64,000 nt of DNA from Thermoanaerobaculia bacterium (lineage in GTDB: Bacteria > Acidobacteriota > Thermoanaerobaculia > Multivoradales > Multivoraceae). Position numbers and translations under genes: made by a program. The notes under the pieces were generated by a model that saw nothing but the letters and a program-made list of their open reading frames with translations, had not been told where the DNA came from and did not search any database. Where the stretch lies: positions 2,400,001 to 2,464,000 of the forward strand of contig OY762911.1 of NCBI GenBank assembly GCA_963666565.1, given 5' to 3'. This document shows, piece by piece, positions 5,456-63,117 of this stretch (its first letter is position 1; every line of letters begins with the position of its first letter).

Positions 5456-5604
5456 GGGTGCGCGGGCCTTCCGACCCGCCGGGTGCGCGGGTCTTCCGAC
5501 CCGCCGGGTGCGCGGGTCTTCCGACCCGCCGGGTGCGCGGGTCTTCCGACCCGCCGGGTGCGCGGGTCTTCCGACCCGCCGGGTGCGCGGGTCTTCTGAC
5601 CCGC
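5456..5604 (+). repeat. Six tandem copies of the REP-like unit GGGTGCGCGGGTCTTCCGACCCGC(C)
   Basis: 25-bp period, no spacers; internal hairpin GCGGGTC-TTCC-GACCCGC. Confidence 0.95.
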
Positions 5605-25260: not shown

Positions 25261-26037
25261 ATGACCGCCCCGAACTACGAGCAGATCCTGGTCGAGGACC
25301 GGGACGGTACCCGCATCCTCACTCTGAACCGGCCGGACAAGCTGAACGCCTGGACCCGGCAGATGAACTTCGAGCTGGTGGACGCGATCGAAGCCGCCAA
25401 CGCGGACCCCGGGCTGTCGGCCATCGTCGTCACCGGGGCGGGACGCGGGTTCTGCGCCGGCGCCGACATCGGGGCCCAGTTCAAGGCCCGGCTCGACGGC
25501 GGCGAGGCCGGAGCGGAGGCCGACCGCACGCCCCCGCGCCCGTGGGTGGAACTGGTGCGGGAGTCGAAGCCGATGATCGCCGCGATCAACGGCGTCGCCG
25601 TGGGCGTCGGGATCACGCTGGCCCTGCCTTTCGACGTCATCGTGCTCTCGGAACGCGCCCGCGTCGGCATGTTCTTCGTGCGGATGGGGCTGGTGCCTGA
25701 ACTCTGCTCCTCCCACTTCCTCGTGCAGCGCGTCGGCTGGGCGAAGGCGAGCGAGATGTGCCTGACCGGAGCCCTCTACGACGCCGCCGAACTCGAGGCG
25801 ATGGGCTTCGCGAACGCCGTCGTGCCGCACGACGAGACGCTGGGTCGCGCGCTCGAACTCGCGGCCCGGATCGGCAAGAACGCCGACAGTTCCCTGCGCG
25901 CCGTCAAGCGGCTGCTGACGAAGAACGGCTCATCGCACGATCTCGGCGAGGTCCACCGCCGCGAATCGGAGGAACTCCGGGCGGCCTACCAGAGCGACGC
26001 TCACCGCGAAGCCGTCGCCGCCTTCATGAAGCGCTGA
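25261..26037 (+). CDS. Enoyl-CoA hydratase/isomerase family protein
   Basis: LNRPDKLNA, FCAGAD, AAINGVAVG, GLVPE. Confidence 0.92.
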   Translation: MTAPNYEQILVEDRDGTRILTLNRPDKLNAWTRQMNFELVDAIEAANADPGLSAIVVTGAGRGFCAGADIGAQFKARLDGGEAGAEADRTPPRPWVELVRESKPMIAAINGVAVGVGITLALPFDVIVLSERARVGMFFVRMGLVPELCSSHFLVQRVGWAKASEMCLTGALYDAAELEAMGFANAVVPHDETLGRALELAARIGKNADSSLRAVKRLLTKNGSSHDLGEVHRRESEELRAAYQSDAHREAVAAFMKR

Positions 26038-26051
26038 CCCGCTGGCTGGCT

Positions 26052-26104
26052 GGGTGCGCGGGTCTCCCGACCCGCCTGCTGGGTGCGCGGGTCTTCTGAC
26101 CCGC
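26052..26104 (+). repeat. Two REP-like units
   Basis: Variants of GGGTGCGCGGGTCTTCCGACCCGC. Confidence 0.85.
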
Positions 26105-26152
26105 TTGCCGGCGTAGCTGGCCAGAAACCGCGCCGGCCGTCAGGCCGGCTCC

Positions 26153-31736: not shown

Positions 31737-31827
31737 CGGTTCATCCCCGCGTGTGCGGGGAAATGCGGGAGGGCAGAGAGGCAGCTTGTTCCGCGAGCGG
31801 ATCATGACCGTGCCGTTGCGGGGGCGG
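31737..31827 (-). CRISPR. Orphan type I-E-like repeat plus a highly degenerate second copy 61 bp away
   Basis: CGGTTCATCCCCGCGTGTGCGGGGAA at 31737; CGGATCAT...GCGGGG at 31798. Confidence 0.6.
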
Positions 31828-34289: not shown

Positions 34290-34415
34290 GAGGGGACCCT
34301 AGCAGGGCCACCGGTGCGCTGGACCGCACCAATGTGGATGCTGCGGGACGGGGCCGAGGTTCGCTCACTTTCTGAGCGACGTTTGGTTCAGTTTCTGAGC
34401 GATGCCAGCACCGGG

Positions 34416-37005
34416 GGTCTATCCCCGCGGGTGCGGGGGAACCCGCCCGATGGACACCGGCAAGCTGGCGGAGTCGGGTCTATCCCCGCGGGTGCGGGGG
34501 AACCAGGCCGGCCAGCCGATCGGCCACGTTCGCCGGGGGTCTATCCCCGCGGGTGCGGGGGAACCGAGTTCTTCCGGCGCGTGCTGGACGAGGGACTGGG
34601 TCTATCCCCGCGGGTGCGGGGGAACCGTGTACGCGCCGATCACGGGCTCGGAGCCGTCGGGTCTATCCCCGCGGGTGCGGGGGAACCAACCCCGGCGGCG
34701 CCGTCGCCGACGGCAAGGAGGGTCTATCCCCGCGGGTGCGGGGGAACCCCCGCGGCCGTCAGCGCCGTGCCGACCCGCTTGGGTCTATCCCCGCGGGTGC
34801 GGGGGAACCGGCCCGGCCGACGGCCTCTGGTGGGCCGACGTGGGTCTATCCCCGCGGGTGCGGGGGAACCGCAGGATGCGATCAACGCCTGCCGCAAGGC
34901 GGAGGTCTATCCCCGCGGGTGCGGGGGAACCGGCGATCGTTCTGTGCGCCGGAGATCGTCAGCAGGTCTATCCCCGCGGGTGCGGGGGAACCCGCGGATG
35001 GGACGGGCGGTCCGATGCCGTGCTGGGTCTATCCCCGCGGGTGCGGGGGAACCGGACGCCCCGATCGACTACGTCCGGGAGGATCGGGTCTATCCCCGCG
35101 GGTGCGGGGGAACCCTCCCGCAAGTTCCAGAAGGCAGGGGTACGGGGGGTCTATCCCCGCGGGTGCGGGGGAACCGAGGAGCGGCCCGACCTCCCGCGAC
35201 AGCCACTCGGTCTATCCCCGCGGGTGCGGGGGAACCACCGTCGACCTCGAGGGCATCCTGACCATCGAGGGTCTATCCCCGCGGGTGCGGGGGAACCGAG
35301 CGCCCTCACTTCCTCGCCTCCACGGCGTGAGGTCTATCCCCGCGGGTGCGGGGGAACCTACGAGCAGGAGCATGAGAACCGCACGATCGAGGGTCTATCC
35401 CCGCGGGTGCGGGGGAACCGTGGCCTTGGCCAGGTCGCGGGCGAGGTCGTGGGGTCTATCCCCGCGGGTGCGGGGGAACCGCCCCCCTGGCGGAGCCTCA
35501 GGCCCCAGATCAGGGTCTATCCCCGCGGGTGCGGGGGAACCGCCCCGGAACCGATCGGCCGCGTCCTCGCCCTGGGTCTATCCCCGCGGGTGCGGGGGAA
35601 CCGTCTACCAGGGCGCGAACGACGTGACGGACGAGGGTCTATCCCCGCGGGTGCGGGGGAACCCAGGTCGGCGAGGCCATCGACACGGGCGAACGGGGTC
35701 TATCCCCGCGGGTGCGGGGGAACCTGGCGACGACCGACTCCAGCGCGAACATCCCGAGGTCTATCCCCGCGGGTGCGGGGGAACCGAGCGCGCCCAGGGC
35801 GACGCGCCGACGGTCACGGGTCTATCCCCGCGGGTGCGGGGGAACCCTCCTCGCCCCGGAACACGCCGCCGGAGAAGGCGGTCTATCCCCGCGGGTGCGG
35901 GGGAACCACCTTGCACCGGCAGCCCCAGCCGTTCGGAGGGGGTCTATCCCCGCGGGTGCGGGGGAACCTCGCCGGCCTTGATGGCGGCGGCAAGCGCCTT
36001 GGGTCTATCCCCGCGGGTGCGGGGGAACCACGCGGCACCGATGAAGCGAGGAGGAACGATGAGGTCTATCCCCGCGGGTGCGGGGGAACCCGCCGGGCCG
36101 CCATCCTCCGCGACGTACTCGAGGGTCTATCCCCGCGGGTGCGGGGGAACCGGCAGCGACTGGGCGGCGACGGACCGGCTGTTGGGTCTATCCCCGCGGG
36201 TGCGGGGGAACCCGCCTGTTCCTCCACCTCCACGTCGTAGGTCGAGGTCTATCCCCGCGGGTGCGGGGGAACCCAGTCCGTCTGGCCGGCCTGATCCGGC
36301 GGCAGGGGTCTATCCCCGCGGGTGCGGGGGAACCACCAGGGAGCTCGCGTAGCTGGAGAACAGATCGGGTCTATCCCCGCGGGTGCGGGGGAACCCTCGG
36401 CGGGAGCGGCCGGCGTCTCGGACATGGCGGTCTATCCCCGCGGGTGCGGGGGAACCGTGACCTGCCGTTTCCGGCGTCGCAGGGCAACGGGTCTATCCCC
36501 GCGGGTGCGGGGGAACCTAGGCGGGACATACATACATACAACCGCACGGCGGTCTATCCCCGCGGGTGCGGGGGAACCCATCAAAAGGTAAGAGTCAAAG
36601 GATCCAGCAAGGGTCTATCCCCGCGGGTGCGGGGGAACCTGGAGCGATCAGCACGTCGCGTGGTTGCTCGGGGGTCTATCCCCGCGGGTGCGGGGGAACC
36701 GGTGTCGCATGTGGGTCTGGACATCGATCGCGGGGTCTATCCCCGCGGGTGCGGGGGAACCCTGAACGACGCGACTCGCGCGCCGGAGGAGCGGGGTCTA
36801 TCCCCGCGGGTGCGGGGGAACCATGTTCCGGCAGGGAGAGGATCAGGCGCGGAACGGTCTATCCCCGCGGGTGCGGGGGAACCAGCCGCGCCGATTGGTG
36901 GATCGAGCAGGAAGAGGGTCTATCCCCGCGGGTGCGGGGGAACCCTGGTCTTGATCGTCGCAGCGTCGCAAGCGTTGGGTCTATCCCCGCGGGTGCGGGG
37001 GAACC
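34416..37005 (-). CRISPR. Type I-E CRISPR array, 43 repeats and 42 spacers
   Basis: Repeat GGTCTATCCCCGCGGGTGCGGGGGAACC (+ strand), exact 61-bp period; orientation inferred from cas2 and leader. Confidence 0.99.
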
Positions 37006-38321: not shown

Positions 38322-39107
38322 CTAGCGTTCCGGCGCAGGTTGGCCCGGCGGTCGAAGCAGCAGCATGCCGTAGCCGTAGGCGCGATGGCGCCCGACGCCC
38401 TTGCGGAGCATGTGGGCGAACCTGTCCGCGTCGTTGACCGTCATGGTGCCGTGGAGGATCGCATCGGGTCCCTCGGGGCCCCCGTTCTCGCCGCGGACTA
38501 TCCGGGTTCGTTGGAACCCGGCCAACTTGCACTGATCCACCGCAACCACATCGTCGAATCGTTCGGCAAGCCAATCCCGGTAGACGGATTCGCGCGTGAT
38601 GCTGGCTCGTTCGGTCGAAGCGTCCCGCCCGCGCGGCGTCCCAGGGCAAGTTCGGAGCAACGCCAATCGGTACGCATCCACTTCGCTGCCCTTGGACAGC
38701 GAGGAGCCGAGTTGCGGGTCGGGCAAGTCGTTCCTCAGACGACGAACGGGCCGGAGTCGAAGGTCGAAACCGAGACGCTCGCCCTGCTCGAAGGCTGAAG
38801 GCATCGGTTTCGACCTCAGCCGTTGGGGCGCGATGACCTCTTCGCAGTCGGGCGGAGCGACGCCGGCCGCCCTCAGCCGCAAGCTGGCTTCATCTCCGTC
38901 GGAGTAGCCATAGAGTGCCGCGCTGCGCCGGCGTTCCGAGGCGAACAAACGAAAGGGCTGGAGTGCCCCCTTGCCGAACATGGCGGACAGGAGAACGTGA
39001 AGGGCGTAGCCCGCATCGAAGGCGCCGCGCCGAATCAGACCGCGGCGGCCTGCCCACCGGTTGAACCTCCTCATGTCGAGAGGAGCATGTACGAGGTGCA
39101 GCTTCAT
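38322..39107 (-). CDS. cas6e: Cas6e (Cse3)
   Basis: C-terminal GVGRHRAYGYGML glycine-rich loop. Confidence 0.92.
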   Translation of the reverse strand: MKLHLVHAPLDMRRFNRWAGRRGLIRRGAFDAGYALHVLLSAMFGKGALQPFRLFASERRRSAALYGYSDGDEASLRLRAAGVAPPDCEEVIAPQRLRSKPMPSAFEQGERLGFDLRLRPVRRLRNDLPDPQLGSSLSKGSEVDAYRLALLRTCPGTPRGRDASTERASITRESVYRDWLAERFDDVVAVDQCKLAGFQRTRIVRGENGGPEGPDAILHGTMTVNDADRFAHMLRKGVGRHRAYGYGMLLLRPPGQPAPER

Positions 39108-39817
39108 TCCGCGCTCCGTGAGGACGCGATGTAGCCCGTGCAGACCTGCCTTGCTCCGCCGTGAAGTCCGCTGACCCAGTTTCGCTCGTCGGTCACGCTC
39201 GCAACACGGTCGGCGCCAGCCGTCCCTTCCGCCGCCGGCCAAGTCGCAAGCAGGCCGTTCGAGTTCGGGAGCGCGACTGCTTCCAACGCCTCTCGTGCCG
39301 CGGGCGCGTCCACCCACCCCTCGAAGATAGGCGACGAAGGCAGACAGCTCTTGCGCCCTATGAACAACGGCCGTGCCGGCTGCTCAAGGGCAGCCTGCAG
39401 CGCATCAAGCGTGGGATGAGCCTCTGCGGGTTCCAGCTTCAGCACAACGCTCATTCGCAAGTCGGCGTGATACTCGCGCCAACGTTGGTGTCTGCCCTCG
39501 TAGGTCTTCGCCCCGCCGTGTCTGCCTGCGGGGGTGCCGCGAGTGGTCCACGCACGGTCGTTCTTGCCCAGTTGCGCTGTCTGGTAGTCCGTCATGCGAT
39601 TCAAGCCGATGTCCCTCTCCCATACGGCACCGAAGACGACTCGCTCCTGCAGCGCCTGGTGCTCGGCCCGCATCGACCGCGACCATCCCAGAGCGTTCGC
39701 GAGCAGGCCGGTCAACATGGACTGGGCCGGGACATCTCGAATCACGCCATGCGCGTCGACGGTCTCCCCGCCGAACGCGCCTATGGGGGCACGAAGACGC
39801 AGGTGCATCCAGCGCAT
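39104..39817 (-). CDS. cas5e: Cas5e
   Basis: LTGLLANALG, DYQTA, REYHAD, LFIGRKSC. Confidence 0.93.
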   Translation of the reverse strand: MRWMHLRLRAPIGAFGGETVDAHGVIRDVPAQSMLTGLLANALGWSRSMRAEHQALQERVVFGAVWERDIGLNRMTDYQTAQLGKNDRAWTTRGTPAGRHGGAKTYEGRHQRWREYHADLRMSVVLKLEPAEAHPTLDALQAALEQPARPLFIGRKSCLPSSPIFEGWVDAPAAREALEAVALPNSNGLLATWPAAEGTAGADRVASVTDERNWVSGLHGGARQVCTGYIASSRSAE

Positions 39818-40947: not shown

Positions 40948-41515
40948 CGGTATGCGTCTCCTTGGCTCCTGGGTTTAGCGTGGCTTCAAGATCGGCGCGG
41001 TAGTACTCGCGGGCGATCCGTCGACATGCCCGCCGGGCTGCGGGGGTGTTGTCGCCGGCCAGCACGAACTGGCCTAGCCCGAGCAGATTGAAGCGCTTGA
41101 AGTCGGTGCGAGCCAGTCGCCGGCAAATGCGGACCACGAGGTCGGACCGCTGGTCCGACGGTGCTGCGAGTAGCCGCGCAAGGCGTAGTTCCGACACGCC
41201 GGCCTGGAAGAGGGCCTTGCCCATGGACAACTCCTGTTGGTGCGCGGAGGCATTGTCCTTTCTCCGCCCCTTCGGTGTCAGGATCGCGACGGCCTGAATC
41301 ATCGCCGCCCATCTCTGTTCGTCGCCATCGGCACTGTAGCGGGTCAGTAGCCTCCAGAAGGCCGCCGCGCCGGCACCGCTCAGGGGGTCGTGGCGAAGAG
41401 CGGCGGCCGACCCCGGGTCGAGACGCGCGATCTCCGCCGCCAAACTCGGGATCACGTTCCCGAGATTCCCCGAACCTTGCGCCGTCCTCGCTGTTTCGGT
41501 GTCGCTACTCGACAT
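40940..41515 (-). CDS. cse2: Cas11 (Cse2)
   Basis: Small helical protein between cas8e and cas7; SELRLARLL, IAREYY. Confidence 0.88.
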   Translation of the reverse strand: MSSSDTETARTAQGSGNLGNVIPSLAAEIARLDPGSAAALRHDPLSGAGAAAFWRLLTRYSADGDEQRWAAMIQAVAILTPKGRRKDNASAHQQELSMGKALFQAGVSELRLARLLAAPSDQRSDLVVRICRRLARTDFKRFNLLGLGQFVLAGDNTPAARRACRRIAREYYRADLEATLNPGAKETHTDA

Positions 41516-43088
41516 TGGCAGGCTCCCGTGCGGTGAAGATCTCCGGCTGATCGGCGAACACGCTCCTGTTGCCGCGGAGACTTCCATAGAAGGCGCTAAA
41601 GGCACGCGCTCGCGCCCGGTGTCGCCGGATCGCTGGGCAGGGCACAGATTCGACAGCGTCTACGAGGAGCGCGTCCGCGGCGGCCACCATGCCCCGGGCG
41701 AAGTTCGCGCGCTCCCCGTGGGTGCCGGCTTGCCGGCTGGCGGCGAACCGCTTCTCGACCGCATCGAAGAACCGCGAGTCGACCCACGCGTCCAGCCGGC
41801 GGGCGTACGGCCTGGCGAACGTTCGGTCGTTCTTGCTCAGGTCGCCCAGCATCTTGCCGCCACTTGCGGCGACAGCTACTCCGAGCCGCAATGCGCGCGA
41901 GACCTCTGCGATCTCCTCAAGAAGATCGCCGCTAATGGCCGCCAGTTCGTCGCGTTCTTCTTTCCGGCCGAAGGCTGCGGCGACTCCCGGGGCGAAGACG
42001 ATGTCCTTCCGCTCGTGGTAGCCATCGGTCTTGCCTTGGCCGCCTGCCATGCCTCGGGCCACTACTCGCCACCGTTCCTTGCTAGCTGCGGAGACGATCA
42101 TCGCTGGCGGAAGATCGTAGGCGGCCTTATCGAAGAGGAGCCTGTTCAGGCGGTCGTACCGGAATCCGGCGCTAGACAGCGACAGCGCTTTGGCATCGCC
42201 CGTGCTGACGGGCGTCCAGAAGTCGCCGACGTTGCCGCGGGCGGCCTTGGCGGCGACCCGGCTCGTCTTTGACCCAGCCGTCTTCGCCACGATTCGCCGA
42301 TTCTCGACACGCAGGCGCACGCGCCGACAGATCTCGATGAAGTAGGGGTCCAGGTCGCCCAGGTCGAGCGACGTTTCGCCGTCCCACGGGACGGTCCAGA
42401 GAAGAGCCGTTCCGTTCTCCGGGCGGTAGTAGTCCGGGAGGCGGTTCAGTAGTTGCGGGCGATCCTCCAGCATCTGCTGGATGTCGTGAAGGAGGTGTGC
42501 GCCGAAACCACCGCCAGCAGGCGCGAGCCCAAGGCAGGGTCGAGCCGAGAACCCGCCGTTCATGCGGGCGATCCCGTAGTTGCCGGCGCCGAGAAATCCA
42601 GCCATCGTCTGCAGGTCGATCAAGGCAAACACCCAGTCGTCCGGTGCATTCGCCCGGGCGACGTCCTGCTTGACGTCGTGGTTCTTGGACGTCACGAGGA
42701 GATCGAGGTCATCGGGCGTGGCAACTCGCCGGCGATACTGGCTGAGCGTGTCGCCCGCCGGGCACTGCATGAAGGCTGGCTTTGCAGGGTCGTTGACGAC
42801 CAACTGCCACGGTTCGTCGCCGTCGAACTCCGGCGTCAGCCTGCGTATTACCGAGCGCCACTCGGCTGCGGCGCTGGGAAGAGCCGTCGCCTCAGCCCGT
42901 TGGACGGCGAGTGTGCCGAGCTGGGCGACAAAGGCGTGCCAGGCGTGTCTTTGGTGGGGCCGCAAGGCCGGGAACGCGGCGACTGTATCGGCCGATGCCT
43001 TCTCGAAGACGTCCGGCAGCGACATCGCCTCGGAGTGGTCGTGGGCGAGACGAACTCGAATTAGTGGATCAGTGAGGAGGTTGTACAT
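41505..43088 (-). CDS. cse1: Cas8e (Cse1)
   Basis: YNLLTDPLI, AFMQ, GAGNYGIARMNGG, EICRRVRL. Confidence 0.92.
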   Translation of the reverse strand: MYNLLTDPLIRVRLAHDHSEAMSLPDVFEKASADTVAAFPALRPHQRHAWHAFVAQLGTLAVQRAEATALPSAAAEWRSVIRRLTPEFDGDEPWQLVVNDPAKPAFMQCPAGDTLSQYRRRVATPDDLDLLVTSKNHDVKQDVARANAPDDWVFALIDLQTMAGFLGAGNYGIARMNGGFSARPCLGLAPAGGGFGAHLLHDIQQMLEDRPQLLNRLPDYYRPENGTALLWTVPWDGETSLDLGDLDPYFIEICRRVRLRVENRRIVAKTAGSKTSRVAAKAARGNVGDFWTPVSTGDAKALSLSSAGFRYDRLNRLLFDKAAYDLPPAMIVSAASKERWRVVARGMAGGQGKTDGYHERKDIVFAPGVAAAFGRKEERDELAAISGDLLEEIAEVSRALRLGVAVAASGGKMLGDLSKNDRTFARPYARRLDAWVDSRFFDAVEKRFAASRQAGTHGERANFARGMVAAADALLVDAVESVPCPAIRRHRARARAFSAFYGSLRGNRSVFADQPEIFTAREPANVE

Positions 43089-43100
43089 GGTTGTGGCCTC

Positions 43101-43190
43101 GCGCTCTCCCCGCTATGGCGGGGTCGCGATTTCATCAAGCGCTTCCGTTGCTCCGCGTACGGGTCAATCTCCGATGAGGTCGGAGGGGTT
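43101..43190 (-). ncRNA. Degenerate mini-CRISPR (crRNA-like regulatory RNA, CreA/CreR-like)
   Basis: Two pseudo-repeats starting at 43101 and 43162 (61-bp period) keep a 6-bp stem; spacer matches 43537-43558. Confidence 0.85.
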
Positions 43191-43257
43191 GGCGCGATTC
43201 TTGGCTGCTACGATTCGGAGCATCGTCGATGAGCAACCAAGTCGGTGATGGTCGTAG

Positions 43258-43330
43258 CGGTCCCGGCCGGAGTCGAAACCGGCATCTCGCCTTTGTTCTT
43301 CGGCGCGTCTTGACCTTAGACGACAGGACC
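43258..43330 (-). ncRNA. tRNA-like cloverleaf with aberrant anticodon and T loops
   Basis: Acceptor GGTCCTG/CGGGACC, D stem GTCT/AGAC with GG in loop, stem CGCC/GGCG, T arm GCCGG-TTTCGACT-CCGGC; ends G-CTA, not CCA. Confidence 0.7.
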
Positions 43331-43513
43331 GCTACGGGTTGGCCCGCCGGGGTGTCTCCCCGGCGGGCGCTGTTGTTCAGGGGACGACGCGCGAAGACCA
43401 ACGGGTCGGTACTTCGGCAGCGAGGGCTCGGTGTAGCGAGTGGCAGTTCAAGGGGATTCCGCATGTCGTCCTTCCTCAGAGCGGTCATTGCGCCCGGTCA
43501 GGGCGCGTCGCCA

Positions 43514-43561
43514 ACCATAGCACAAGACAGACTGTCGCGCCTCCGTTGCTCCTCGTACGCT
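43514..43561 (-). promoter_or_regulatory. Predicted promoter with mini-CRISPR target site
   Basis: Extended -10 TGcTATGGT (43522-43514); protospacer 43558-43537 preceded by AGC. Confidence 0.65.
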
Positions 43562-43690
43562 ACAGATGAGGACTCGATGCAGCGTTCAGCCGTCGGCGGC
43601 AAGTTGACGACTGCCCGGGCGAGCTTACGGCTCGCCCGTTTTGAGCGAGCGGTACTCCGCCACGCCCTCGCCCCACCGCGTCGGTCTGTC

Positions 43691-46306
43691 TCACCAAGCA
43701 GTGACTGAAGAAGCCGAGGATTCCTCAGGTCGGACTCCGGTCCGATCGTAGGTCAGTCGAGCGTCGCCGACCGTCAGAACGAGGGTGCTGGCCGCGGTAG
43801 GTTCGGCTCGTGCGGCCTCGATGTCCTCCTTCCTGGGCAGGCCGCGCCGGAACATGTGAGCCGGGAGGTTGAAGGTACGGACCTCACTGCCGAACGGTCC
43901 GGCTAGCGGGGACGGGAGTTCGATTCGCGGGCCGTCTTCGCCCAGTCGGGTTCGGACTTTGGAGTCCAGGTCCGCGAAGACGAGGTCCCCGTCGAAGGGC
44001 TCTTCCCGCGTCAGCGCGTGGTTCCTCGCCGCGACGGCCTCGGCGGAGTTTCTTCCGACCACCTTGCTCAGGTGAGAGAGCCAGTCTTCGCCGAGCGTCT
44101 CAGCCGACTCGCGCAGCACCTGTGGGTGAGTCCCGCGCTCGACCAGCGTCCTGTTCATCTCCGGGACGGTCCAGGCCGGGTGGTCCTCGATGAGCCTCCG
44201 CGTTGCCTCGATTCCGACGAGGTTCGTGTAGATCCCGCCGCGGTCCGAAACGCCGAGCCCGTGTTGCAGGAGCGAGCCGTCGAGCCCTGCCGCCAGCCCC
44301 GAATCCGGCACGAGAACGAGGCAGCGGGCATCCTTGAACGCTGCCGGGCGTTCGTTCGGTGCGTGGCGATGCAGTCGCCCGAGCCGCTGCAGCAGGACGT
44401 CTACGGGGCAGATGTCCGTGATCAGGTAGTCGGCGTCGATGTCGAGCGACTGCTCCAGCGTCTGCGTGCCGATGACGATTGTGCCGCCCGGTGGACGACT
44501 CTCCTTCCCCAATTCCCGTTCGACGGCGGCGTCCAGCAGTCTTCGGTCCTCGGCGGCGAACCGGCTGTGGTGTAGCGCCGGTCCGCCTGCGACCGCAAGC
44601 GCCAGATCGCTGCCGCCCTGGTCCACCAGCGCGGCGAAGACGGCCCGTGCGCTGTCCACGGTGTTGCGAACGACGAGCACCTTGGCATCGTTCTGCGCCG
44701 CACGGAGCGCTTTGCGGGCGATTGCTCCTGGTTCGCCCAGGAACGCCGCCGTGGACATTGCGACCGGCTTGGACGTGCCCGTCGTCCGGATAGGGGTCAC
44801 CCGGAACTCGCCGCGGCCGTCCGCGAGCGTCATGGCGGGGTAGGGGACGGCCTCGGCATCGCTTGGCGATGGCGTGGCGTAGCGGTTGGTCTTCGAGACG
44901 AACTTGGAACTCGCCGCCGAACCCAGGGTGGCCGACATGAGCAGGGCGTGGCCTCCCAGCGTGAGGTGTCCCCGCAGGACGCCGCGCAGTACCTGCGTCA
45001 TGTAGCCGTCGCTGGCGTGGACTTCGTCCACAACGAGCAGGCTGCCGGCAAGGCCAGCCGCCCGGAAGTGCGCCCACTTCACTTGCAGACCTGCGAGGAG
45101 CGCCTGGTCGACCGTCCCGACCGCCGCTGGGGCCGTCAAGTACTTGCGGGCACTCTCGGCCGACCAACGGGCAAGCCGCTTCGCTTCGTCGGGCTCGTCC
45201 TCCCAGTAGACCTCGAACTTCTCTGCTCGGCGTCCTTCGGAATCTCCGGCCCGGAGGTAGCCCGGCACCGCCAAAACCGTCTCTGCGTTGGCAGTCGACG
45301 GGAAGAGCCGGTCCAGCGCCCGATGGACGCGCGCGTGCAGTTGTTTCGCTGCGGACCGAGTCGGAACGGCGAAGTAGAGACCGTCTACGACTCCTGCGCG
45401 CCACAGGGACGCGAATCGCAAGATGGCCGCTTCCGTCTTGCCGGACCCGGTCTCGCTCTCCAGAATCAGGAGAGGGCTGTCGAGCGGCGCCGAAGCCACG
45501 GCGGTCTGCAGAGGCCGCGGCTCGGCGTAGTTGAACAACCTCCTCACATCGGCGACCGGTGCGCCCTTCGGCCAAGCAGACCGGGCGAACCCCTTGCTCG
45601 CGACTGTCCCTGCGGCGATGCGGCGAGCGCGCTCGATGTAGGACGGGTCCGGGTCCGGCTCGTGCTTGAAGGCATCTTCGTCCGAGCCCAATTGATCGGC
45701 AATGGCGACGACGCCGGCGAAGAGGTGGGCCAACGCCGGCACGTCGGGGACCGGAGGTCCAGACTTGAAGGAGTCGGGGAACCACGCCCGTCCCCGCTCG
45801 TAGAGCAGCTTCGCGGTGGCTCGTGGTTCGTAGCCTCCGAAGGGCTGCCACAGCTCGGCCGGGCCTCTTCCCGTGCGCGATGGCCGCCGAGCCGGTCGGC
45901 CGTGATGGGCGAGCGCCGCGTAGAGAAGAGGCTCGACGCCGCCGCCCCACTCGTCGGCGATGCGATGGAGTCCCAGGAGTTCGCAGAGTCCGGGCTGCGC
46001 GAAGCTCAGCAGCGCCTCTCCGATGTGTCCGGCTGGCCGCGGGCCTCGCCGAACCGCTCCGCCGGATCGCGGCACCTTGAACTGAAAGCCGGCGTTGAGC
46101 TTGCCGAAATCGTGCAGGTAGGCGAGGTACGTCAGTCGGGCGGCGAGCGTGTCGTCGAGAACCGGCGCGCCCGCGGCTCGGGCGAAGCGGGCGCGTAGCA
46201 CGGGTTCGCCGATCAGTGCTTCAAAGCAGGCCGCTACGTCGGCACAGTGATGCTCCAGCCGATGGAAGCGTCCCGTTGCTTCGTCGAACTTCCCCCATGC
46301 GTCCAC
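43691..46306 (-). CDS. cas3: Cas3 HD nuclease-helicase
   Basis: HDFGK, ETGSGKTE, DEVH, SAT, HSRF, QRLGRLHRH. Confidence 0.97.
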   Translation of the reverse strand: MDAWGKFDEATGRFHRLEHHCADVAACFEALIGEPVLRARFARAAGAPVLDDTLAARLTYLAYLHDFGKLNAGFQFKVPRSGGAVRRGPRPAGHIGEALLSFAQPGLCELLGLHRIADEWGGGVEPLLYAALAHHGRPARRPSRTGRGPAELWQPFGGYEPRATAKLLYERGRAWFPDSFKSGPPVPDVPALAHLFAGVVAIADQLGSDEDAFKHEPDPDPSYIERARRIAAGTVASKGFARSAWPKGAPVADVRRLFNYAEPRPLQTAVASAPLDSPLLILESETGSGKTEAAILRFASLWRAGVVDGLYFAVPTRSAAKQLHARVHRALDRLFPSTANAETVLAVPGYLRAGDSEGRRAEKFEVYWEDEPDEAKRLARWSAESARKYLTAPAAVGTVDQALLAGLQVKWAHFRAAGLAGSLLVVDEVHASDGYMTQVLRGVLRGHLTLGGHALLMSATLGSAASSKFVSKTNRYATPSPSDAEAVPYPAMTLADGRGEFRVTPIRTTGTSKPVAMSTAAFLGEPGAIARKALRAAQNDAKVLVVRNTVDSARAVFAALVDQGGSDLALAVAGGPALHHSRFAAEDRRLLDAAVERELGKESRPPGGTIVIGTQTLEQSLDIDADYLITDICPVDVLLQRLGRLHRHAPNERPAAFKDARCLVLVPDSGLAAGLDGSLLQHGLGVSDRGGIYTNLVGIEATRRLIEDHPAWTVPEMNRTLVERGTHPQVLRESAETLGEDWLSHLSKVVGRNSAEAVAARNHALTREEPFDGDLVFADLDSKVRTRLGEDGPRIELPSPLAGPFGSEVRTFNLPAHMFRRGLPRKEDIEAARAEPTAASTLVLTVGDARLTYDRTGVRPEESSASSVTAW

Positions 46307-52567: not shown

Positions 52568-52768
52568 GGGTGCGCGGGTCTGCCGACCCGCATGGGTGCG
52601 CGGGTCTTCCGACCCGCATGGGTGCGCGGGTCTTCCGACCCGCATGGGTGCGCGGGTCTTCCGACCCGCTGCCGCCGCAGGCGGCCAGGTATTCGCGCCG
52701 CGAAGCGGCTCCGCCGGGCGACCTCCAGCGCGGTTTCGCCGGAAGCGGGTCAGAAGACCCGCGCACCC
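52568..52768. repeat. REP-like cluster: four tandem copies and one inverted copy
   Basis: Copies start at 52568, 52594, 52620, 52646; inverted copy at 52745-52768. Confidence 0.92.
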
Positions 52769-60915: not shown

Positions 60916-63117
60916 ATGTCGAGAACCGCCAGCAGTCTGCCGGGTCCGCGCCGTCTGCCGGGTGCGCGGGTCTTCCGACCCGCCCTGGGTGCGCGGGTCT
61001 TCCGACCCGCTGCCGCCGAAGGCGGCCATGGAACGCGCCGGCCGCTGGGTGCGCGGGTCTTCCGACCCGCTGCCGCCGAAGGCGGCCATCGAACGTGCCG
61101 GCCGGAGGCCGGCTCCGCTCTCCTCCCCGGCGCCTCCGCCGTGCTGGCCGTACTCTTCGGTCTAGCCGCAGCCGCCGCCGTGGCCGAAACCGGCGAGCAG
61201 GGCCGCTCCGCCCACGGCGAGTGGCGGCACCACGGCGGCGACCACGCCTCCAGCCGATACTCGCCGCTCGCCCAGATCGACGGTTCGAACTTCGGCCGGC
61301 TCGAAATCGCCTGGCGCTGGCGCACGGCGGATCACGACGTGCCGCTGGACGTGCTGCCCGGCTACGACACCGGCTTCTACCGCTCCGTGCCGCTGATGAT
61401 CGGCGGCCGCCTGTTCGCGCCGACCAGCCTGGGCCAGGTCGCCCTGCTCGAGCCGGCGACCGGCGAGCAGAAATGGGTCTACAACCCGAAGACCTGGGAA
61501 CGCGGCGGCACCACGATGCGGCCGGTCGGCGCTCGCGGCATCGAGTACTGGTCGGACGGCGAGAAGGAGCGCCTGTTCGTCGCCACGATCGGCCGCCAGC
61601 TCGTCTCCATCGACGCCGCCACCGGCTTGGCCGACCGAGCCTTCGGCGAGGACGGCACGGTGGACCTGGCCCGGGATCTCGGCCCCGGCGACTACGCGAT
61701 TCGCCACATCACCCACGGAGCGCCGCCGATCGTCGTCGGCACGAGCGTGATCGTCGGCTCGAAGATCTTCGACTACTCGATCCGGAGCGACGCGCCGCCC
61801 GGCCACGTCCGCGCCTACGACGTCCACACGGGCGAGTTCAAGTGGCGCTTCAACACGATCCCGCGCGACGACGAGTACGGGGTCGAGACCTGGGAGAACG
61901 AGTCCTGGCGCACGGCCGGCAACGCGAACGTGTGGACGTCGATGAGCGCGGACCACGAACTGGGCTACGTCTACCTGCCGACCAGCACGCCCTCGAACGA
62001 CTACTACGGCGCCGACCGGCCCGGCGACAACCTGTTCGCCGAGAGCCTCGTCTGCGTCGACGCGGAGACGGGCGAGCGCGTCTGGCACTTCCAGACCGTC
62101 CGCCACGGCATCTGGGACTACGACATCGCCTCGGCCCCGAACCTGCTCGACATCGTCGTCGACGGCAAGCTGGTCAAGGCGGTCGCCCAGGTCTCGAAGA
62201 CCGGTTTCACCTACGTCTTCGACCGGGCCACCGGCGAGCCGGTGTGGCCGATCGAGGACCGGCCGGTGAACCACGAATCGACCGTGCCGGGCGAGAAGCT
62301 GGCGGAGACACAGCCGTTTCCGACGAAGCCGCCGGCGTTCGAGAAGCAGGGAGTCAGCGAGGACGACCTGATCGACTGGACGCCGGAACTGCGGGAGGAG
62401 GCGCTCGAGATCGCCGGGAAGCTGATCCTGGCGCCGATGTTCCCGCCCCTGATCGTCCAGGGCGAAGGGGGCAAGGAGGGCGTCGTGGTCGTGCCCGGCG
62501 CGGCCGGCGGTGCGAACCACCCCGGAGCCTCCGTGGACCCGGCGACCGGCGTGCTCTTCGTCGAGTCGCAGAACCGGCCGGTCGGCATGTCCCTGATCGA
62601 GCCGGACGCGGCCCGCCGGCCGGACTGGCGCTACGTGATCGACTACGTCGACACCGGGGGCCCTCGCGGCCTGCCGCTGTTCAAGCCGCCGTACCGGACG
62701 ATCACCGCGATCGACCTGAACCGCGGCGAGCACCTCTGGCGGATCCCGGTCGGCCCCGGCCCCAGGGACCACCCGGCGATCGCGCATCTGAACCTCGGCG
62801 ACATGGGCACCCGCTACATCGGCATGCCGGCCGACGGCGGCCTGCTCGTCACCCGCACGCTCCTGATCGGCTTCCTGGCCCTGCCCGACGAGGAGAACCC
62901 CCGCACCAGCCGCGGCGGCCTCCTGCGCGCCTACGACAAGGCGACCGGCGAGGTGCTTGCGGAACTCGAGACCGACGTCTGGCTCCACGGCCCGCCGATG
63001 ACCTACATGCACGAAGGCCGACAGTACATCGTCATCGCCGGCGGCGGCGCCCGCAACCGCCGGATACCGGACGAGTTGATCGCCTTCGCCCTACCGGATT
63101 CCGAGATGGGAGGATAG
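60916..63117 (+). CDS. PQQ-dependent dehydrogenase
   Basis: YSPLAQID, HGIWDYD, PIEDRPV, PMTY; REP copies in the N-terminus so start uncertain. Confidence 0.88.
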   Translation: MSRTASSLPGPRRLPGARVFRPALGARVFRPAAAEGGHGTRRPLGARVFRPAAAEGGHRTCRPEAGSALLPGASAVLAVLFGLAAAAAVAETGEQGRSAHGEWRHHGGDHASSRYSPLAQIDGSNFGRLEIAWRWRTADHDVPLDVLPGYDTGFYRSVPLMIGGRLFAPTSLGQVALLEPATGEQKWVYNPKTWERGGTTMRPVGARGIEYWSDGEKERLFVATIGRQLVSIDAATGLADRAFGEDGTVDLARDLGPGDYAIRHITHGAPPIVVGTSVIVGSKIFDYSIRSDAPPGHVRAYDVHTGEFKWRFNTIPRDDEYGVETWENESWRTAGNANVWTSMSADHELGYVYLPTSTPSNDYYGADRPGDNLFAESLVCVDAETGERVWHFQTVRHGIWDYDIASAPNLLDIVVDGKLVKAVAQVSKTGFTYVFDRATGEPVWPIEDRPVNHESTVPGEKLAETQPFPTKPPAFEKQGVSEDDLIDWTPELREEALEIAGKLILAPMFPPLIVQGEGGKEGVVVVPGAAGGANHPGASVDPATGVLFVESQNRPVGMSLIEPDAARRPDWRYVIDYVDTGGPRGLPLFKPPYRTITAIDLNRGEHLWRIPVGPGPRDHPAIAHLNLGDMGTRYIGMPADGGLLVTRTLLIGFLALPDEENPRTSRGGLLRAYDKATGEVLAELETDVWLHGPPMTYMHEGRQYIVIAGGGARNRRIPDELIAFALPDSEMGG
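60960..61087 (+). repeat. Three REP-like units
   Basis: Copies at 60960, 60987, 61047; two carry a TGCCGCCGAAGGCGGC tail. Confidence 0.9.

What the first reader, a model, noticed from the sequence alone, without database searches (positions are those of the whole stretch)
43101..43190. Hidden mini-CRISPR whose spacer targets a nearby promoter, mismatched only at positions 6 and 18
Minus strand reads CTCCGA-cctca-TCGGAG-ATTGACC-C, then spacer GTACGCGGAGCAACGGAAGCGCTTGATGAAAT, then CCCCGC-cata-GCGGGG-AGAGCGC. The main repeat is CCCCGC-accc-GCGGGG-ATAGACC and has the same 61-bp period. The first stem differs in sequence but still pairs fully. Target 43558-43537 (GTACGAGGAGCAACGGAGGCGC) matches 20 of the first 22 nt. 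In I-E Cascade every sixth base is flipped out, so these mismatches should be tolerated. Pairing stops at position 22, which fits binding without Cas3 cleavage. The flank AGC ends in C, as the array bias predicts. The site overlaps the expected -35 region of an extended -10 promoter.
Basis: partly seen in the sequence, partly recalled or inferred. Interest (0 to 1): 0.9.

Follow-up and report, generated by a model that had tools for sequence, protein, structure and literature searches.

The report
Self-regulating mini-CRISPR in cas operon leader
A degenerate two-repeat mini-CRISPR just upstream of the Cascade genes encodes a guide RNA that partly matches a promoter-region site about 400 bases further upstream, most likely letting the CRISPR complex throttle its own production; such elements have been described since 2023, so this is a clean new example and not a new principle.

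Summary
On the minus strand, in the 602-bp gap between cas3 and cse1 (cas8e) of an intact type I-E locus, two hairpins lie exactly 61 nt apart. The first is followed by a near-perfect 5' handle. The second has the same stem as the CRISPR repeat. The 32-nt spacer-like sequence matches 43558-43537 at 20 of 22 positions, the best match in the 4.8-Mb genome.

Seven related genomes carry the same element, and two more distant loci carry analogous ones. In these nine loci, over spacer positions 1-20, mismatches fill 21 of 27 cells at positions 6/12/18 but only 7 of 153 cells elsewhere. Spacer and target co-vary at six positions, and pairing is random beyond position 22. This is the footprint expected of Cascade binding.

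I read it as a CreR-type regulatory mini-array that represses the Cascade operon's own promoter. This kind is published for type I-E (Salmonella CreR, tested; mini-arrays in about 19% of I-E loci).

An undescribed extra is a conserved, covarying, tRNA-Glu-derived tRNA-like RNA between target and mini-array. No RNA data or experiments were available.

The parts
43169..43185 (-). PsiR1 hairpin (CTCCGA-CCTCA-TCGGAG), the degenerate first repeat stem
   Evidence: Sequence. Present in the MFE and centroid folds. The stem is invariant and the loop varies (4-5 nt) in 7 genomes.
43161..43168 (-). PsiR1 5' handle ATTGACCC (array handle is ATAGACC plus a variable base)
   Evidence: Five of the 7 homologous loci have ATAGACC, identical to the array handle. 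The handles in G015 and G010 track their own arrays.
43129..43160 (-). PsiS, the 32-nt spacer-like guide; bases 1-22 pair with the target
43101..43128 (-). PsiR2: CGCGA, then the hairpin CCCCGC-CATA-GCGGGG (43123-43108, same stem as the array repeat), then AGAGCGC
   Evidence: It is retained upstream of cse1 even where the rest has decayed (L021, L022).
43108..43168 (-). Predicted 61-nt mature crRNA-like RNA: 8-nt handle, 32-nt guide and 21-nt 3' hairpin part
   Evidence: Inferred from the geometry, which is identical to the array unit. No RNA data.
43537..43558 (-). Target (protospacer-like) site, 20 of 22 identical to PsiS bases 1-22
   Evidence: unique best match in the genome; conserved, covarying.
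43559..43561 (-). PAM-position flank AGC
   Evidence: Flanks in the nine loci are AGC, ATT, AGT x5 and AAT x2. The 29th repeat base is mostly C, then T.
43557..43562 (-). Candidate -10 hexamer TAGCGT, overlapping the PAM flank and protospacer bases 1-2
   Evidence: The TAnnGT hexamer is present in all 7 homologous loci and in G010. It is preceded by TTGAC[AG] at 18-19 nt in L003-L006 and G010, but not in the window.
43514..43522 (-).
   Evidence: Sequence. L017 has TATGGT 5 nt after its target and L002 has TAGGAT 17 nt after. Not found by the consensus scan.
43342..43368 (-). 11-bp GC hairpin in the leader
   Evidence: It covaries in 5 relatives and is absent in L017. The T-rich tail lies on the plus strand only.
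43254..43335 (-). tRNA-like cloverleaf, closest to tRNA-Glu, with a 4-bp stem and 10-nt loop in place of the anticodon arm
   Evidence: 92.9% of cells paired, and 13 of 24 pairs show compensatory change.
43200..43241 (-). Leader hairpin between the tRNA-like element and PsiR1
   Evidence: Fold. My reading of the alignment shows a TTGG/CCAA to TCGG/CCGA compensatory change in L005.
41505..43088 (-). [quoted passage not shown]
   Evidence: Pfam PF09481.
43691..46306 (-). cas3
   Evidence: Pfam Cas3 HD and C-terminal domains.
38322..39317 (-). cas6e ORF as listed (true start probably further downstream), the presumed processing enzyme
   Evidence: Pfam PF08798.
34415..37005 (-). Main CRISPR array: 43 repeats, period 61

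Best explanation
This is a CreR-type regulatory mini-array in the 5' leader of the type I-E Cascade operon.

Shown:
- Two degenerate repeats flank a spacer-like sequence with exact crRNA geometry. The first repeat keeps the 5' handle. The second keeps the Cas6e-type 3' hairpin.
- The guide's bases 1-22 match one site about 370 bp upstream on the same strand.
- Across nine loci, guide and site co-evolve. All base-pairing positions are kept, while positions 6, 12 and 18 drift freely.

Inferred:
- The leader is transcribed with, or just ahead of, cse1.
- Cas6e cuts at the base of both hairpins and releases a 61-nt crRNA-like RNA that assembles into Cascade.
- Cascade binds the upstream site through a partial R-loop of about 22 bp next to an A-N-Y flank.
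- Because the R-loop cannot complete, Cas3 is not licensed, and the bound complex blocks the promoter that drives the leader and the Cascade genes.
- The result is negative feedback. When Cascade is scarce, titrated by ordinary crRNAs, or blocked by anti-CRISPRs, repression is relieved. This last step follows what was shown for Salmonella CreR, not anything tested here.
For: - Locus context: intact cas3, cse1, cse2, cas7, cas5, cas6e and cas1 plus a 43-repeat array, all on the same strand.
- Geometry and repeat likeness.
- The target is the unique best match in the genome: 20 of 22, next best 19 of 22 (one site), then 17 of 22.
- Conservation: 7 of 42 genus genomes carry the element. That is 7 of the 8 loci whose Cse1 is at least 71% identical; the eighth, G027, has a 19-nt cas3-cse1 gap and no element.
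- Analogous mini-arrays occur in G010 (same layout, 20-nt guide) and in G015 (opposite strand, target between a promoter-like site and cse1).
- Mismatch pattern: 21 of 27 cells at positions 6/12/18 against 7 of 153 elsewhere in 1-20, and 19 of 60 matches at positions 23-32.
- Matched letters differ between genomes at positions 3, 4, 9, 13, 17 and 20.
- PsiR1 handles follow each genome's own array handle.
- Flanks are A-N-Y in 9 of 9 loci, including the independently arranged G015. The array's 29th base is C, then T.
- Four relatives and G010 have TTGAC[AG]-N18/19-TAGTGT overlapping the PAM and protospacer start.
- A metagenomic relative that lost the upstream region has a decayed PsiR1, an indel in the guide, and no target in the 7.2 kb held.
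- Published precedent for I-E comes from passages read.
Against: - There is no RNA or protein evidence. No run on record as RNA holds the stretch (listed under tried and rejected only).
- The promoter is not established. The consensus scan found no sigma-70-type site in 42900-43900. The window lacks the -35 seen in relatives. The position of the best -10 candidate relative to the target differs between loci.
- The PAM of this system is inferred only from the 29th repeat base. Partial protospacer matches in related genomes (26-28 of 32) are at my rough estimate of chance level and gave other -3 bases.
- The PsiR1 stem differs from the repeat stem at 2 of 6 pairs, and G010 has no clear PsiR1 hairpin, so 5' processing by Cas6e is uncertain.
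- In L003 and L004 the 20-nt guide pairs along its whole length, so 'incomplete R-loop' cannot explain Cas3 avoidance there.
- About 370 nt of conserved structured RNA lies between target and mini-array. The targeted promoter may therefore serve that RNA as well as, or instead of, cse1.
- The nine loci are related, so cell counts overstate the number of independent events.
Confidence: 0.8

Rival explanations
1. CreTA-like guard module. The main job of the guide would be to keep the RNA encoded between target and mini-array silent. That RNA comprises the leader hairpin and the tRNA-Glu-derived tRNA-like element. It would be harmful or otherwise costly when Cascade is lost or inhibited, and cas autoregulation would be secondary. 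This can coexist with the best explanation.
For: - The tRNA-like element lies directly downstream of the targeted site in all 7 homologous loci and is under structural selection.
- It is absent from G010, whose mini-array is otherwise laid out the same way, so it behaves as inserted cargo.
- Shmakov et al. report cargo, especially toxin-antitoxin genes, regulated by mini-arrays (passages).
- Mukai et al. report irregular tRNAs next to toxin-antitoxin systems in Acidobacteria, with two tested variants killing E. coli (passages).
- A paralogue in this genome lies beside HigA-like and HicB-like genes.
Against: - No toxicity data exist.
- No separate promoter or terminator sets the tRNA-like element apart from the mini-array and cse1. 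The hairpin before it has no T-tail on this strand.
- G010 and G015 have mini-arrays without it, so the guide-target pair does not depend on it.
- A heavily structured leader is also the mundane expectation for a long untranslated 5' region.
Confidence: 0.12
2. The two 22-nt copies are operators for a DNA-binding protein, or relics of a local duplication. The flanking hairpins would then be incidental.
For: Direct repeats of an operator can co-evolve. Both copies lie in one regulatory intergenic region.
Against: - Only one copy is flanked by a repeat-derived handle and hairpin at exact crRNA spacing.
- Divergence is concentrated at every sixth base counted from the handle. No operator model predicts this.
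- In G015 the guide and target are on the strand opposite to cse1, yet they keep the same rules and an AAT flank.
- In three loci the non-pairing 3' part of the guide is cleanly missing, as 12 nt.
Confidence: 0.03
3. A functionless remnant of an old or aborted CRISPR array whose spacer happens to resemble nearby DNA.
For: Solitary repeat-like sequences do occur, for example at 31745-31760 in this window. L021 and L022 show that such elements decay.
Against: The genome-wide uniqueness of the match, conservation across genomes whose Cse1 identity is only 71-80%, covariation, and the position-specific mismatch pattern all argue against neutral decay.
Confidence: 0.02
4. A self-targeting guide used for priming or for cutting the chromosome, not for regulation.
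For: The seed is perfect (positions 1-5 and 7-8 match in 9 of 9 loci) and the flank is plausible.
Against: Stable coexistence of guide and target in nine genomes argues against cleavage. Pairing ends at about position 22 of 32, and positions 23-32 are random.
Confidence: 0.02

Closest known systems
CreR (Cas-regulating RNA) of the Salmonella enterica type I-E locus (Liu et al., bioRxiv 10.1101/2023.03.10.532045; passages read)
   Same: A degenerate mini-CRISPR in the region upstream of casA/cse1. PsiR1 keeps the 8-nt 5' handle and PsiR2 keeps the 3' part. The spacer is partly complementary to a site upstream of the first Cascade gene. The proposed or shown outcome is autorepression of Cascade.
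   Different: - In Salmonella the match is 15 consecutive bases beside the canonical AAG. Here it is about 22 bases interrupted only at sixth positions, beside AGC (AGT, ATT or AAT in relatives).
- Here the mini-array abuts the cse1 ribosome-binding region, and its target lies about 370 bp upstream, beyond a conserved structured leader that contains a tRNA-like RNA.
- The host is a Thermoanaerobaculia (Acidobacteriota) MAG lineage (record titles).
- Repression was tested in Salmonella/E. coli and not here.
Regulatory mini-arrays between cas3 and cas8 in type I-E loci (Shmakov et al., PMC10120712; passages read)
   Same: The location is the same long cas3-cas8 intergenic region. The architecture is two repeat-like sequences around a spacer. 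The targets are partial matches in the cas8 promoter region. The authors also remark that sixth-position mismatches do not matter. They report mini-arrays in about 19% of 3,741 I-E loci.
   Different: - In their E. coli example the target lies downstream of the mini-array. Here it lies upstream, so the guide may be made from the very transcript it represses.
- Their lists are in supplementary files that I could not open, so I cannot say whether this lineage is already included.
CreTA (CRISPR-repressed toxin with CreA guide), type I-B and others (known to me only from passages and the abstract listed)
   Same: A degenerate mini-CRISPR guide with limited complementarity directs Cascade to a promoter. 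A small RNA gene sits next to the guide gene.
   Different: CreT toxins are described there as small RNAs that sequester rare tRNAs. Here the neighbouring RNA is itself tRNA-like, and nothing shows that it is toxic.
Long-form tracrRNA autorepression of Cas9 (Workman et al. 2021, seen only as cited in the passage)
   Same: An effector is reprogrammed by a non-canonical guide to repress its own promoter.
   Different: That is a class 2, single-protein effector with a different RNA.
Irregular tRNAs and allo-tRNAs of Acidobacteria (Mukai et al., PMC5389517; passages read)
   Same: Non-canonical cloverleaves in the same phylum, often near toxin-antitoxin genes, possibly acting as regulatory non-coding RNAs.
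   Different: Allo-tRNAs have a long variable arm and a normal anticodon loop. This element has a short variable region and a 4-bp stem with a 10-nt loop. No link to CRISPR is mentioned in the passages I read.

Membership tests
CreR / regulatory mini-array (crRNA-like RNA gene) | Two degenerate repeat-like sequences flank one spacer-like sequence at crRNA spacing. The first keeps the 5' handle and the second keeps the 3' hairpin. | tested here: met
   The handle matches the array handle at 6 of 7 bases (7 of 7 in five relatives). The PsiR2 stem matches the repeat stem at 12 of 12 bases. The unit is 61 nt.
CreR / regulatory mini-array (crRNA-like RNA gene) | Located inside the cas locus, in an intergenic region next to effector genes | tested here: met
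   It lies in the cas3-cse1 gap, 12 nt before the cse1 ATG.
CreR / regulatory mini-array (crRNA-like RNA gene) | Partial, seed-anchored complementarity to a site in or beside a cas promoter | tested here: inconclusive
   Complementarity is met and conserved. That the site is a promoter rests on hexamer patterns in relatives. The consensus scan of the window found none.
CreR / regulatory mini-array (crRNA-like RNA gene) | A functional PAM beside the target | tested here: inconclusive
   Flanks are A-N-Y in 9 of 9 loci. Only PAM position -1 could be inferred (C, then T, then G). Attempts to find protospacers gave chance-level matches.
CreR / regulatory mini-array (crRNA-like RNA gene) | Cas6-dependent maturation and Cascade-dependent repression of the target promoter | not testable with these tools
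   No RNA runs and no experiments.
Canonical CRISPR array | Identical repeats with spacers acquired from foreign DNA | tested here: not met
   The two repeats differ from each other and from the array repeat. The same 'spacer' is inherited across 7 genomes and matches the host's own locus.
CreTA (CRISPR-repressed toxin-antitoxin) | A toxin gene under the promoter that the guide represses | tested here: inconclusive
   A conserved tRNA-like RNA lies downstream of the target. Nothing shows toxicity. G010 and G015 lack it.
tRNA | Cloverleaf with a 5-bp anticodon stem, a 7-nt anticodon loop and a 7-bp acceptor stem ending in a free 3' end | tested here: not met
   ARAGORN with default settings makes no call. 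Rfam gives no tRNA match at E up to 10. The anticodon arm is replaced by a 4-bp stem and a 10-nt loop, and the closing stem is 9-12 bp. The acceptor, D and T arms resemble tRNA-Glu.

The most novel reading that the evidence does not exclude
The tRNA-Glu-derived tRNA-like RNA embedded between the Cascade-targeted promoter and the mini-array is not mere leader structure. It would be a CRISPR-guarded cargo: an RNA that is de-repressed when Cascade is lost or inhibited and then acts on translation. One possibility is that it acts as a decoy for tRNA-Glu or its partners, since its 10-nt loop keeps a Glu codon (GAA or GAG) in all 10 family members seen. That would make this a new kind of CreT-like addiction or alarm module. 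A milder variant is that it works as a built-in RNase P/Z processing signal that frees the guide and the cas mRNA, a natural counterpart of engineered tRNA-guide arrays.
Probability: 0.15. Interest if true: 0.75.

Novelty: new member of a known kind. Interest (0 to 1): 0.45.

Why it matters
This extends guide-RNA autoregulation of type I-E CRISPR-Cas to an uncultured Acidobacteriota lineage.

It also supplies unusually clean natural evidence for how Cascade reads DNA. Evolution has kept every base-pairing position of guide and target in step, while every sixth base drifts at about the rate expected for unconstrained sequence. The part of the guide beyond the pairing region has been trimmed by 12 nt in three loci.

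For anyone annotating CRISPR loci, it shows that a 602-bp 'empty' cas3-cse1 gap can hold a regulator, its operator and further structured RNA.

The tRNA-like element in the leader is the one piece with no published counterpart that I could find. It is worth a direct test.

Tried and rejected
- **RNA evidence.** The look-up of sequencing runs listed 4 runs of one study that hold the stretch. No RNA holder was listed.
- **PAM from protospacers.** The window's array was searched against the 42 genus genomes, and 16 partial hits were fetched. The best were 26-28 of 32. By my rough estimate that is about what chance gives in this search space. Including the 29th base in the BLAST hit also biases the -1 base. 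I draw no PAM from them.
- **A protein gene in the gap.** The 117-aa ORF at 43488-43135 and the plus-strand ORF at 43229-43708 have no Pfam match. The frame is not kept from the start region in L004, L006 and L017, and the region shows RNA-type compensatory changes. I reject coding.
- **An internal promoter between the tRNA-like element and PsiR1.** What looked like -35 and -10 hexamers are the two arms of a hairpin.
- **The GC hairpin at 43368-43342 as a terminator on the cas strand.** Its T-rich tail is on the plus strand only.
- **Known RNA families.** Rfam gave nothing meaningful at E up to 1 over 20 kb or up to 10 over 511 bases.
- **Secondary genomic targets.** The only other site is 19 of 22 at genome position 3,005,182 with flank CGA. 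I estimate about 0.2 such sites are expected by chance, and I did not follow it.
- **Wider searches.**
  - The genome contigs pattern scan returned only the six relatives already found.
  - The metagenome scan returned three contigs: one decayed copy (L021), one with PsiR2 only (L022), and one in an unrelated-looking AT-richer context (L020, not pursued).
- **Tools and files that were closed.**
  - I did not try to open supplementary files of papers, which were announced as closed. The mini-array lists of Shmakov et al. and the CreR figures S6/S7 of Liu et al. may already include related loci.
Full report
**Context.** The window carries a complete type I-E CRISPR-Cas locus on the minus strand.
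- cas3 lies at 46306-43691.
- A 602-bp gap follows.
- The Cascade and adaptation genes run from cse1 (43088-41505) through cse2, cas7, cas5, cas6e and cas1. All have Pfam matches.
- An open frame with a cas2-like position follows, read by eye and not searched.
- The array has 43 repeats with period 61, at 37005-34415.
- The repeat is 28 invariant bases plus a variable 29th base: C 32, T 6, G 5 of 43.

Record titles of near-identical relatives name the lineage as Thermoanaerobaculia, 'Candidatus Multivorans'.

**The observation.**
- A 6-bp hairpin CTCCGA-CCTCA-TCGGAG is followed by ATTGACCC. The array handle is ATAGACC plus a variable base.
- A 32-nt spacer-like sequence follows, then CGCGA.
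- Next comes CCCCGC-CATA-GCGGGG, whose stem is identical to the repeat stem.
- Then AGAGCGC, and twelve bases later the cse1 ATG.

The two stem ends are 61 nt apart, exactly the array unit. Both hairpins form in the predicted fold of the region.

Bases 1-22 of the spacer-like sequence match 43558-43537 at 20 positions, with mismatches at 6 and 18. A scan of both strands of the whole 4.79-Mb genome found no other site with 20 or more matches. It found one with 19, none with 18 and fifteen with 17. A chance match inside the same 602-bp gap is therefore very unlikely.

**Comparative evidence.** The downstream half of the gap is conserved in six other genomes of the genus.
- 7 of 42 genus genomes match, counting the window's own.
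- A pattern scan of 185,579 species genomes returned only these six relatives.
- Cse1 homologues occur in 10 of the 42 genomes.
- Of the eight loci with Cse1 at least 71% identical, seven have the element. The eighth (G027) has a 19-nt cas3-cse1 gap.

In every one of the seven, the guide has a same-strand partial match 255-429 nt upstream of the handle.

The two more distant loci have their own versions.
- G010 (Cse1 58% identical) has the same layout with a 20-nt guide.
- G015 (40% identical) has a mini-array on the opposite strand. Its guide matches a site between a promoter-like TTGACT-N17-TACGGT and the cse1 start.

**Position-specific pattern.** The nine guide-target pairs give this table for positions 1-20.

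| Position | Mismatched loci |
|---|---|
| 6 | 8 of 9 |
| 12 | 5 of 9 |
| 18 | 8 of 9 |
| 9 | 3 of 9 |
| 10, 14, 15, 20 | 1 of 9 each |
| the other 12 positions | 0 of 9 |

- That is 21 of 27 cells at positions 6/12/18 against 7 of 153 cells elsewhere.
- The seed positions 1-5, 7 and 8 are perfect in all nine loci.
- Beyond position 22, the six 32-nt guides match their targets in 19 of 60 cells, which is about random for this composition.
- Where letters differ between genomes at pairing positions, guide and target changed together: position 3 (A, G, T), 4 (C, T), 9 (A, C, T), 13 (A, G), 17 (A, C) and 20 (C, T, G).
- At position 12 the guide shows all four bases while the target stays A, so that base is unconstrained.

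The roughly 78% mismatch rate at sixth positions is what free drift would give. The loci are related, so these cells are not independent events, and I give no probability. The several distinct states per position nevertheless show repeated change.

In type I Cascade complexes every sixth guide base is flipped out and does not pair. I take this from established structural work, and Shmakov et al. cite it. The pattern is therefore the evolutionary footprint expected if Cascade loaded with this RNA reads this DNA.

**Further details that fit.**
- Five of the seven homologous loci carry the exact array handle ATAGACC after the first hairpin.
- G015's first pseudo-repeat carries ATGGACC, like G015's own array. 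G010's carries ATAGTCC against ATAGGCC in its array.
- In G009, G004 and G010 the guide is 20 nt. It has lost exactly 12 nt of the non-pairing part, which is two six-base steps.
- Short guides are reported as usual for such regulatory RNAs.
- A metagenomic relative (L021), in which cas3 runs up to the element, has a decayed first repeat, an indel in the guide, and no target in the 7.2 kb held. Another (L022) keeps only the second hairpin before cse1.

**PAM.** The three bases before the target are AGC in the window, ATT in L002, AGT in five loci and AAT in two. That is A-N-Y in 9 of 9 loci.

By analogy with E. coli I-E, the 29th repeat base would be copied from the last PAM base. That analogy is recalled from memory; I did not read it in any call. 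The 29th base is C 271, T 25, G 22, A 1 of 319 in eight arrays.

In the eight homologous loci the flank is confounded with a -10-like hexamer, but G015 is free of that confound. I could not determine the full PAM, because protospacer searches gave only chance-level partial matches.

**Which promoter.** The motif and spacing are real, but the would-be -35 bases are unlike a -35 hexamer. The consensus scan found nothing in the region.

In L003-L006 and G010 there is a textbook TTGAC[AG], then 18-19 nt, then TAGTGT. That hexamer is made of the PAM-side flank plus protospacer bases 1-2. Cascade would then sit from -10 across the start site.

All seven homologous loci and G010 keep TAnnGT there. 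However, the window, L002 and L017 lack the -35. In the window a roughly 95-bp insertion separates it from the hexamer. These three loci have TATGGT or TAGGAT 5-17 nt after the target instead.

The target always overlaps a plausible core promoter, but its exact identity in the window is open.

**The leader.** Between target and mini-array lie three conserved structured elements.
- An 11-bp GC hairpin at 43368-43342. It covaries in relatives, is absent in L017, and has a T-tail only on the plus strand.
- A tRNA-like cloverleaf at 43335-43254.
- A further hairpin at 43241-43200.

The tRNA-like element is not called by ARAGORN at default settings or by Rfam.

A covariance model built from the seven copies was searched against the genus.
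- It scores 87-106 bits on the seven I-E loci.
- It scores 37-48 bits on a paralogous family in three genomes.
- It scores about 25-30 bits on many further sites. The three I inspected in G000 are ordinary tRNAs (Cys, Glu, Thr).

In a draw of 151 genomes of the class, 12 matched at E up to 1e-6. Of the seven outside the genus, I read five by eye (not run through ARAGORN). All five are ordinary tRNA-Glu genes, with anticodon loops CTTTCAA or CTCTCAA. tRNA-Glu is therefore its nearest relative.

On ten members aligned to the model (the alignment was fitted to the model, which favours it):
- 92.9% of cells are paired, against 23-43% when partners are slid.
- 13 of 24 pairs show compensatory changes.
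- G-U pairs indicate the cas strand as the transcribed one.

In place of an anticodon arm there is a 4-bp stem and a 10-nt loop. The loop contains GAA or GAG in all ten members. G010 and G015 lack the element at their I-E loci, so it is an insertion into the leader of one clade.

**Interpretation.** The best-supported reading is a CreR-type regulatory mini-array. The leader is transcribed toward cse1, and Cas6e releases a 61-nt crRNA-like RNA. Cascade loaded with that RNA forms a partial R-loop of about 22 bp at the upstream promoter-region site. It blocks transcription without licensing Cas3, giving negative feedback on Cascade synthesis.

The anatomy, the uniqueness of the match, the conservation, the covariation and the sixth-position pattern are shown. 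Transcription, processing, binding, lack of cleavage and repression are inferred from the known behaviour of type I-E systems and of published CreR elements.

A weak point is the fully paired 20-nt guide in L003 and L004. There, avoidance of Cas3 would need another explanation, such as a shortened complex or a flank that allows binding only.

**Comparison with what is known.**
- Liu et al. showed experimentally that a degenerate mini-CRISPR upstream of Salmonella casA represses the casA promoter through the E. coli Cascade. Their match was 15 consecutive bases beside AAG. They also noted that the first pseudo-repeat keeps the handle and the second keeps the 3' part (passages).
- Shmakov et al. 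found mini-arrays in about 19% of 3,741 I-E loci, typically in long cas3-cas8 gaps, with partial matches in the cas8 promoter region. They remarked that sixth-position mismatches are expected to be tolerated (passages).

The present element is therefore a new member of a known kind. Three things are particular to it:
- the clean multi-genome sixth-position signature;
- the arrangement in which the guide gene lies downstream of its own target and directly before cse1;
- the tRNA-like cargo in the leader.

**Search for prior description of the tRNA-like cargo.**
- A full-text search for allo-tRNA, Acidobacteria, tRNA-like and CRISPR found 884 papers holding at least two of the terms. I saw 12 listed, none relevant beyond Mukai et al..
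- The term searches inside the two mini-array papers found 'tRNA' only in the CreT context or in the reference list.
- I could not see their supplements.

This is a limited search, not proof of absence.

**Verdict.** I rate interest as moderate, at 0.45.

Noticed in passing
window 43254-43335 (-); paralogue at G000:C1:1240279-1240367 (-) = L035 5980-6068; L030 1287-1375 (-); L031 1501-1589 (+): A family of tRNA-Glu-derived tRNA-like RNAs. Members have a 9-13-bp closing stem, normal-looking D and T arms, and a 4-bp stem with a 10-nt loop containing GAA or GAG in place of the anticodon arm. Outside the CRISPR loci, the three paralogues are each preceded by a strong Shine-Dalgarno sequence and a conserved 8-codon mini-ORF. 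Its third codon is AGA or ATA, and it ends about 10 nt before the cloverleaf. The copy in this genome lies beside HigA-like (PF21716) and HicB-like genes.
   Followed up: partly
window 31737-31767 (-): A solitary repeat-like sequence (…CCCCGCACACGCGGGGATGAACCG) lies 2.7 kb beyond the end of the array, on the array strand. Its handle resembles the repeat of a different array type seen in genome G030 (handle ATGAACCG, 29th base G), not the local repeat.
   Followed up: no
L073 (G015), region upstream of its cse1-like gene: A second, independently arranged mini-array lies on the strand opposite to cse1. It has a 32-nt guide that pairs over positions 1-19 (mismatches at 6, 9 and 18) with a site between a TTGACT-N17-TACGGT promoter-like element and the cse1 start. 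The flank is AAT.
   Followed up: partly
L068 (G027): A closely related I-E locus (Cse1 74% identical, same array repeat) has only 19 nt between cas3 and cse1. It has no mini-array, no PsiR2 and no tRNA-like element, so it is a natural comparison strain.
   Followed up: partly
L006/L028 (G036), 5' half of the tRNA-like element: A 28-nt segment covering the 5' acceptor strand and the D-arm is present in three tandem copies.
   Followed up: no
window 5456-5604, 26036-26108, 52568-52669, 60985-61104: Dispersed short tandem arrays of a 25-29-nt unit built around the hairpin GCGGGTC-TTCC-GACCCGC (REP-like elements).
   Followed up: no
genome position 3,005,182 (-), outside the window: The second-best genomic match to the guide: 19 of 22, with the first 14 bases identical to the real target, and flank CGA. 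I estimate about 0.2 such sites are expected by chance. It was not examined.
   Followed up: no
window 43560-43655 (-): A roughly 95-bp insertion relative to the relatives lies just upstream of the target. It contains a strong hairpin (GGGCGAGC-CGTAA-GCTCGCCC) and separates the ancestral TTGAC-type -35 position from the TAnnGT hexamer.
   Followed up: no
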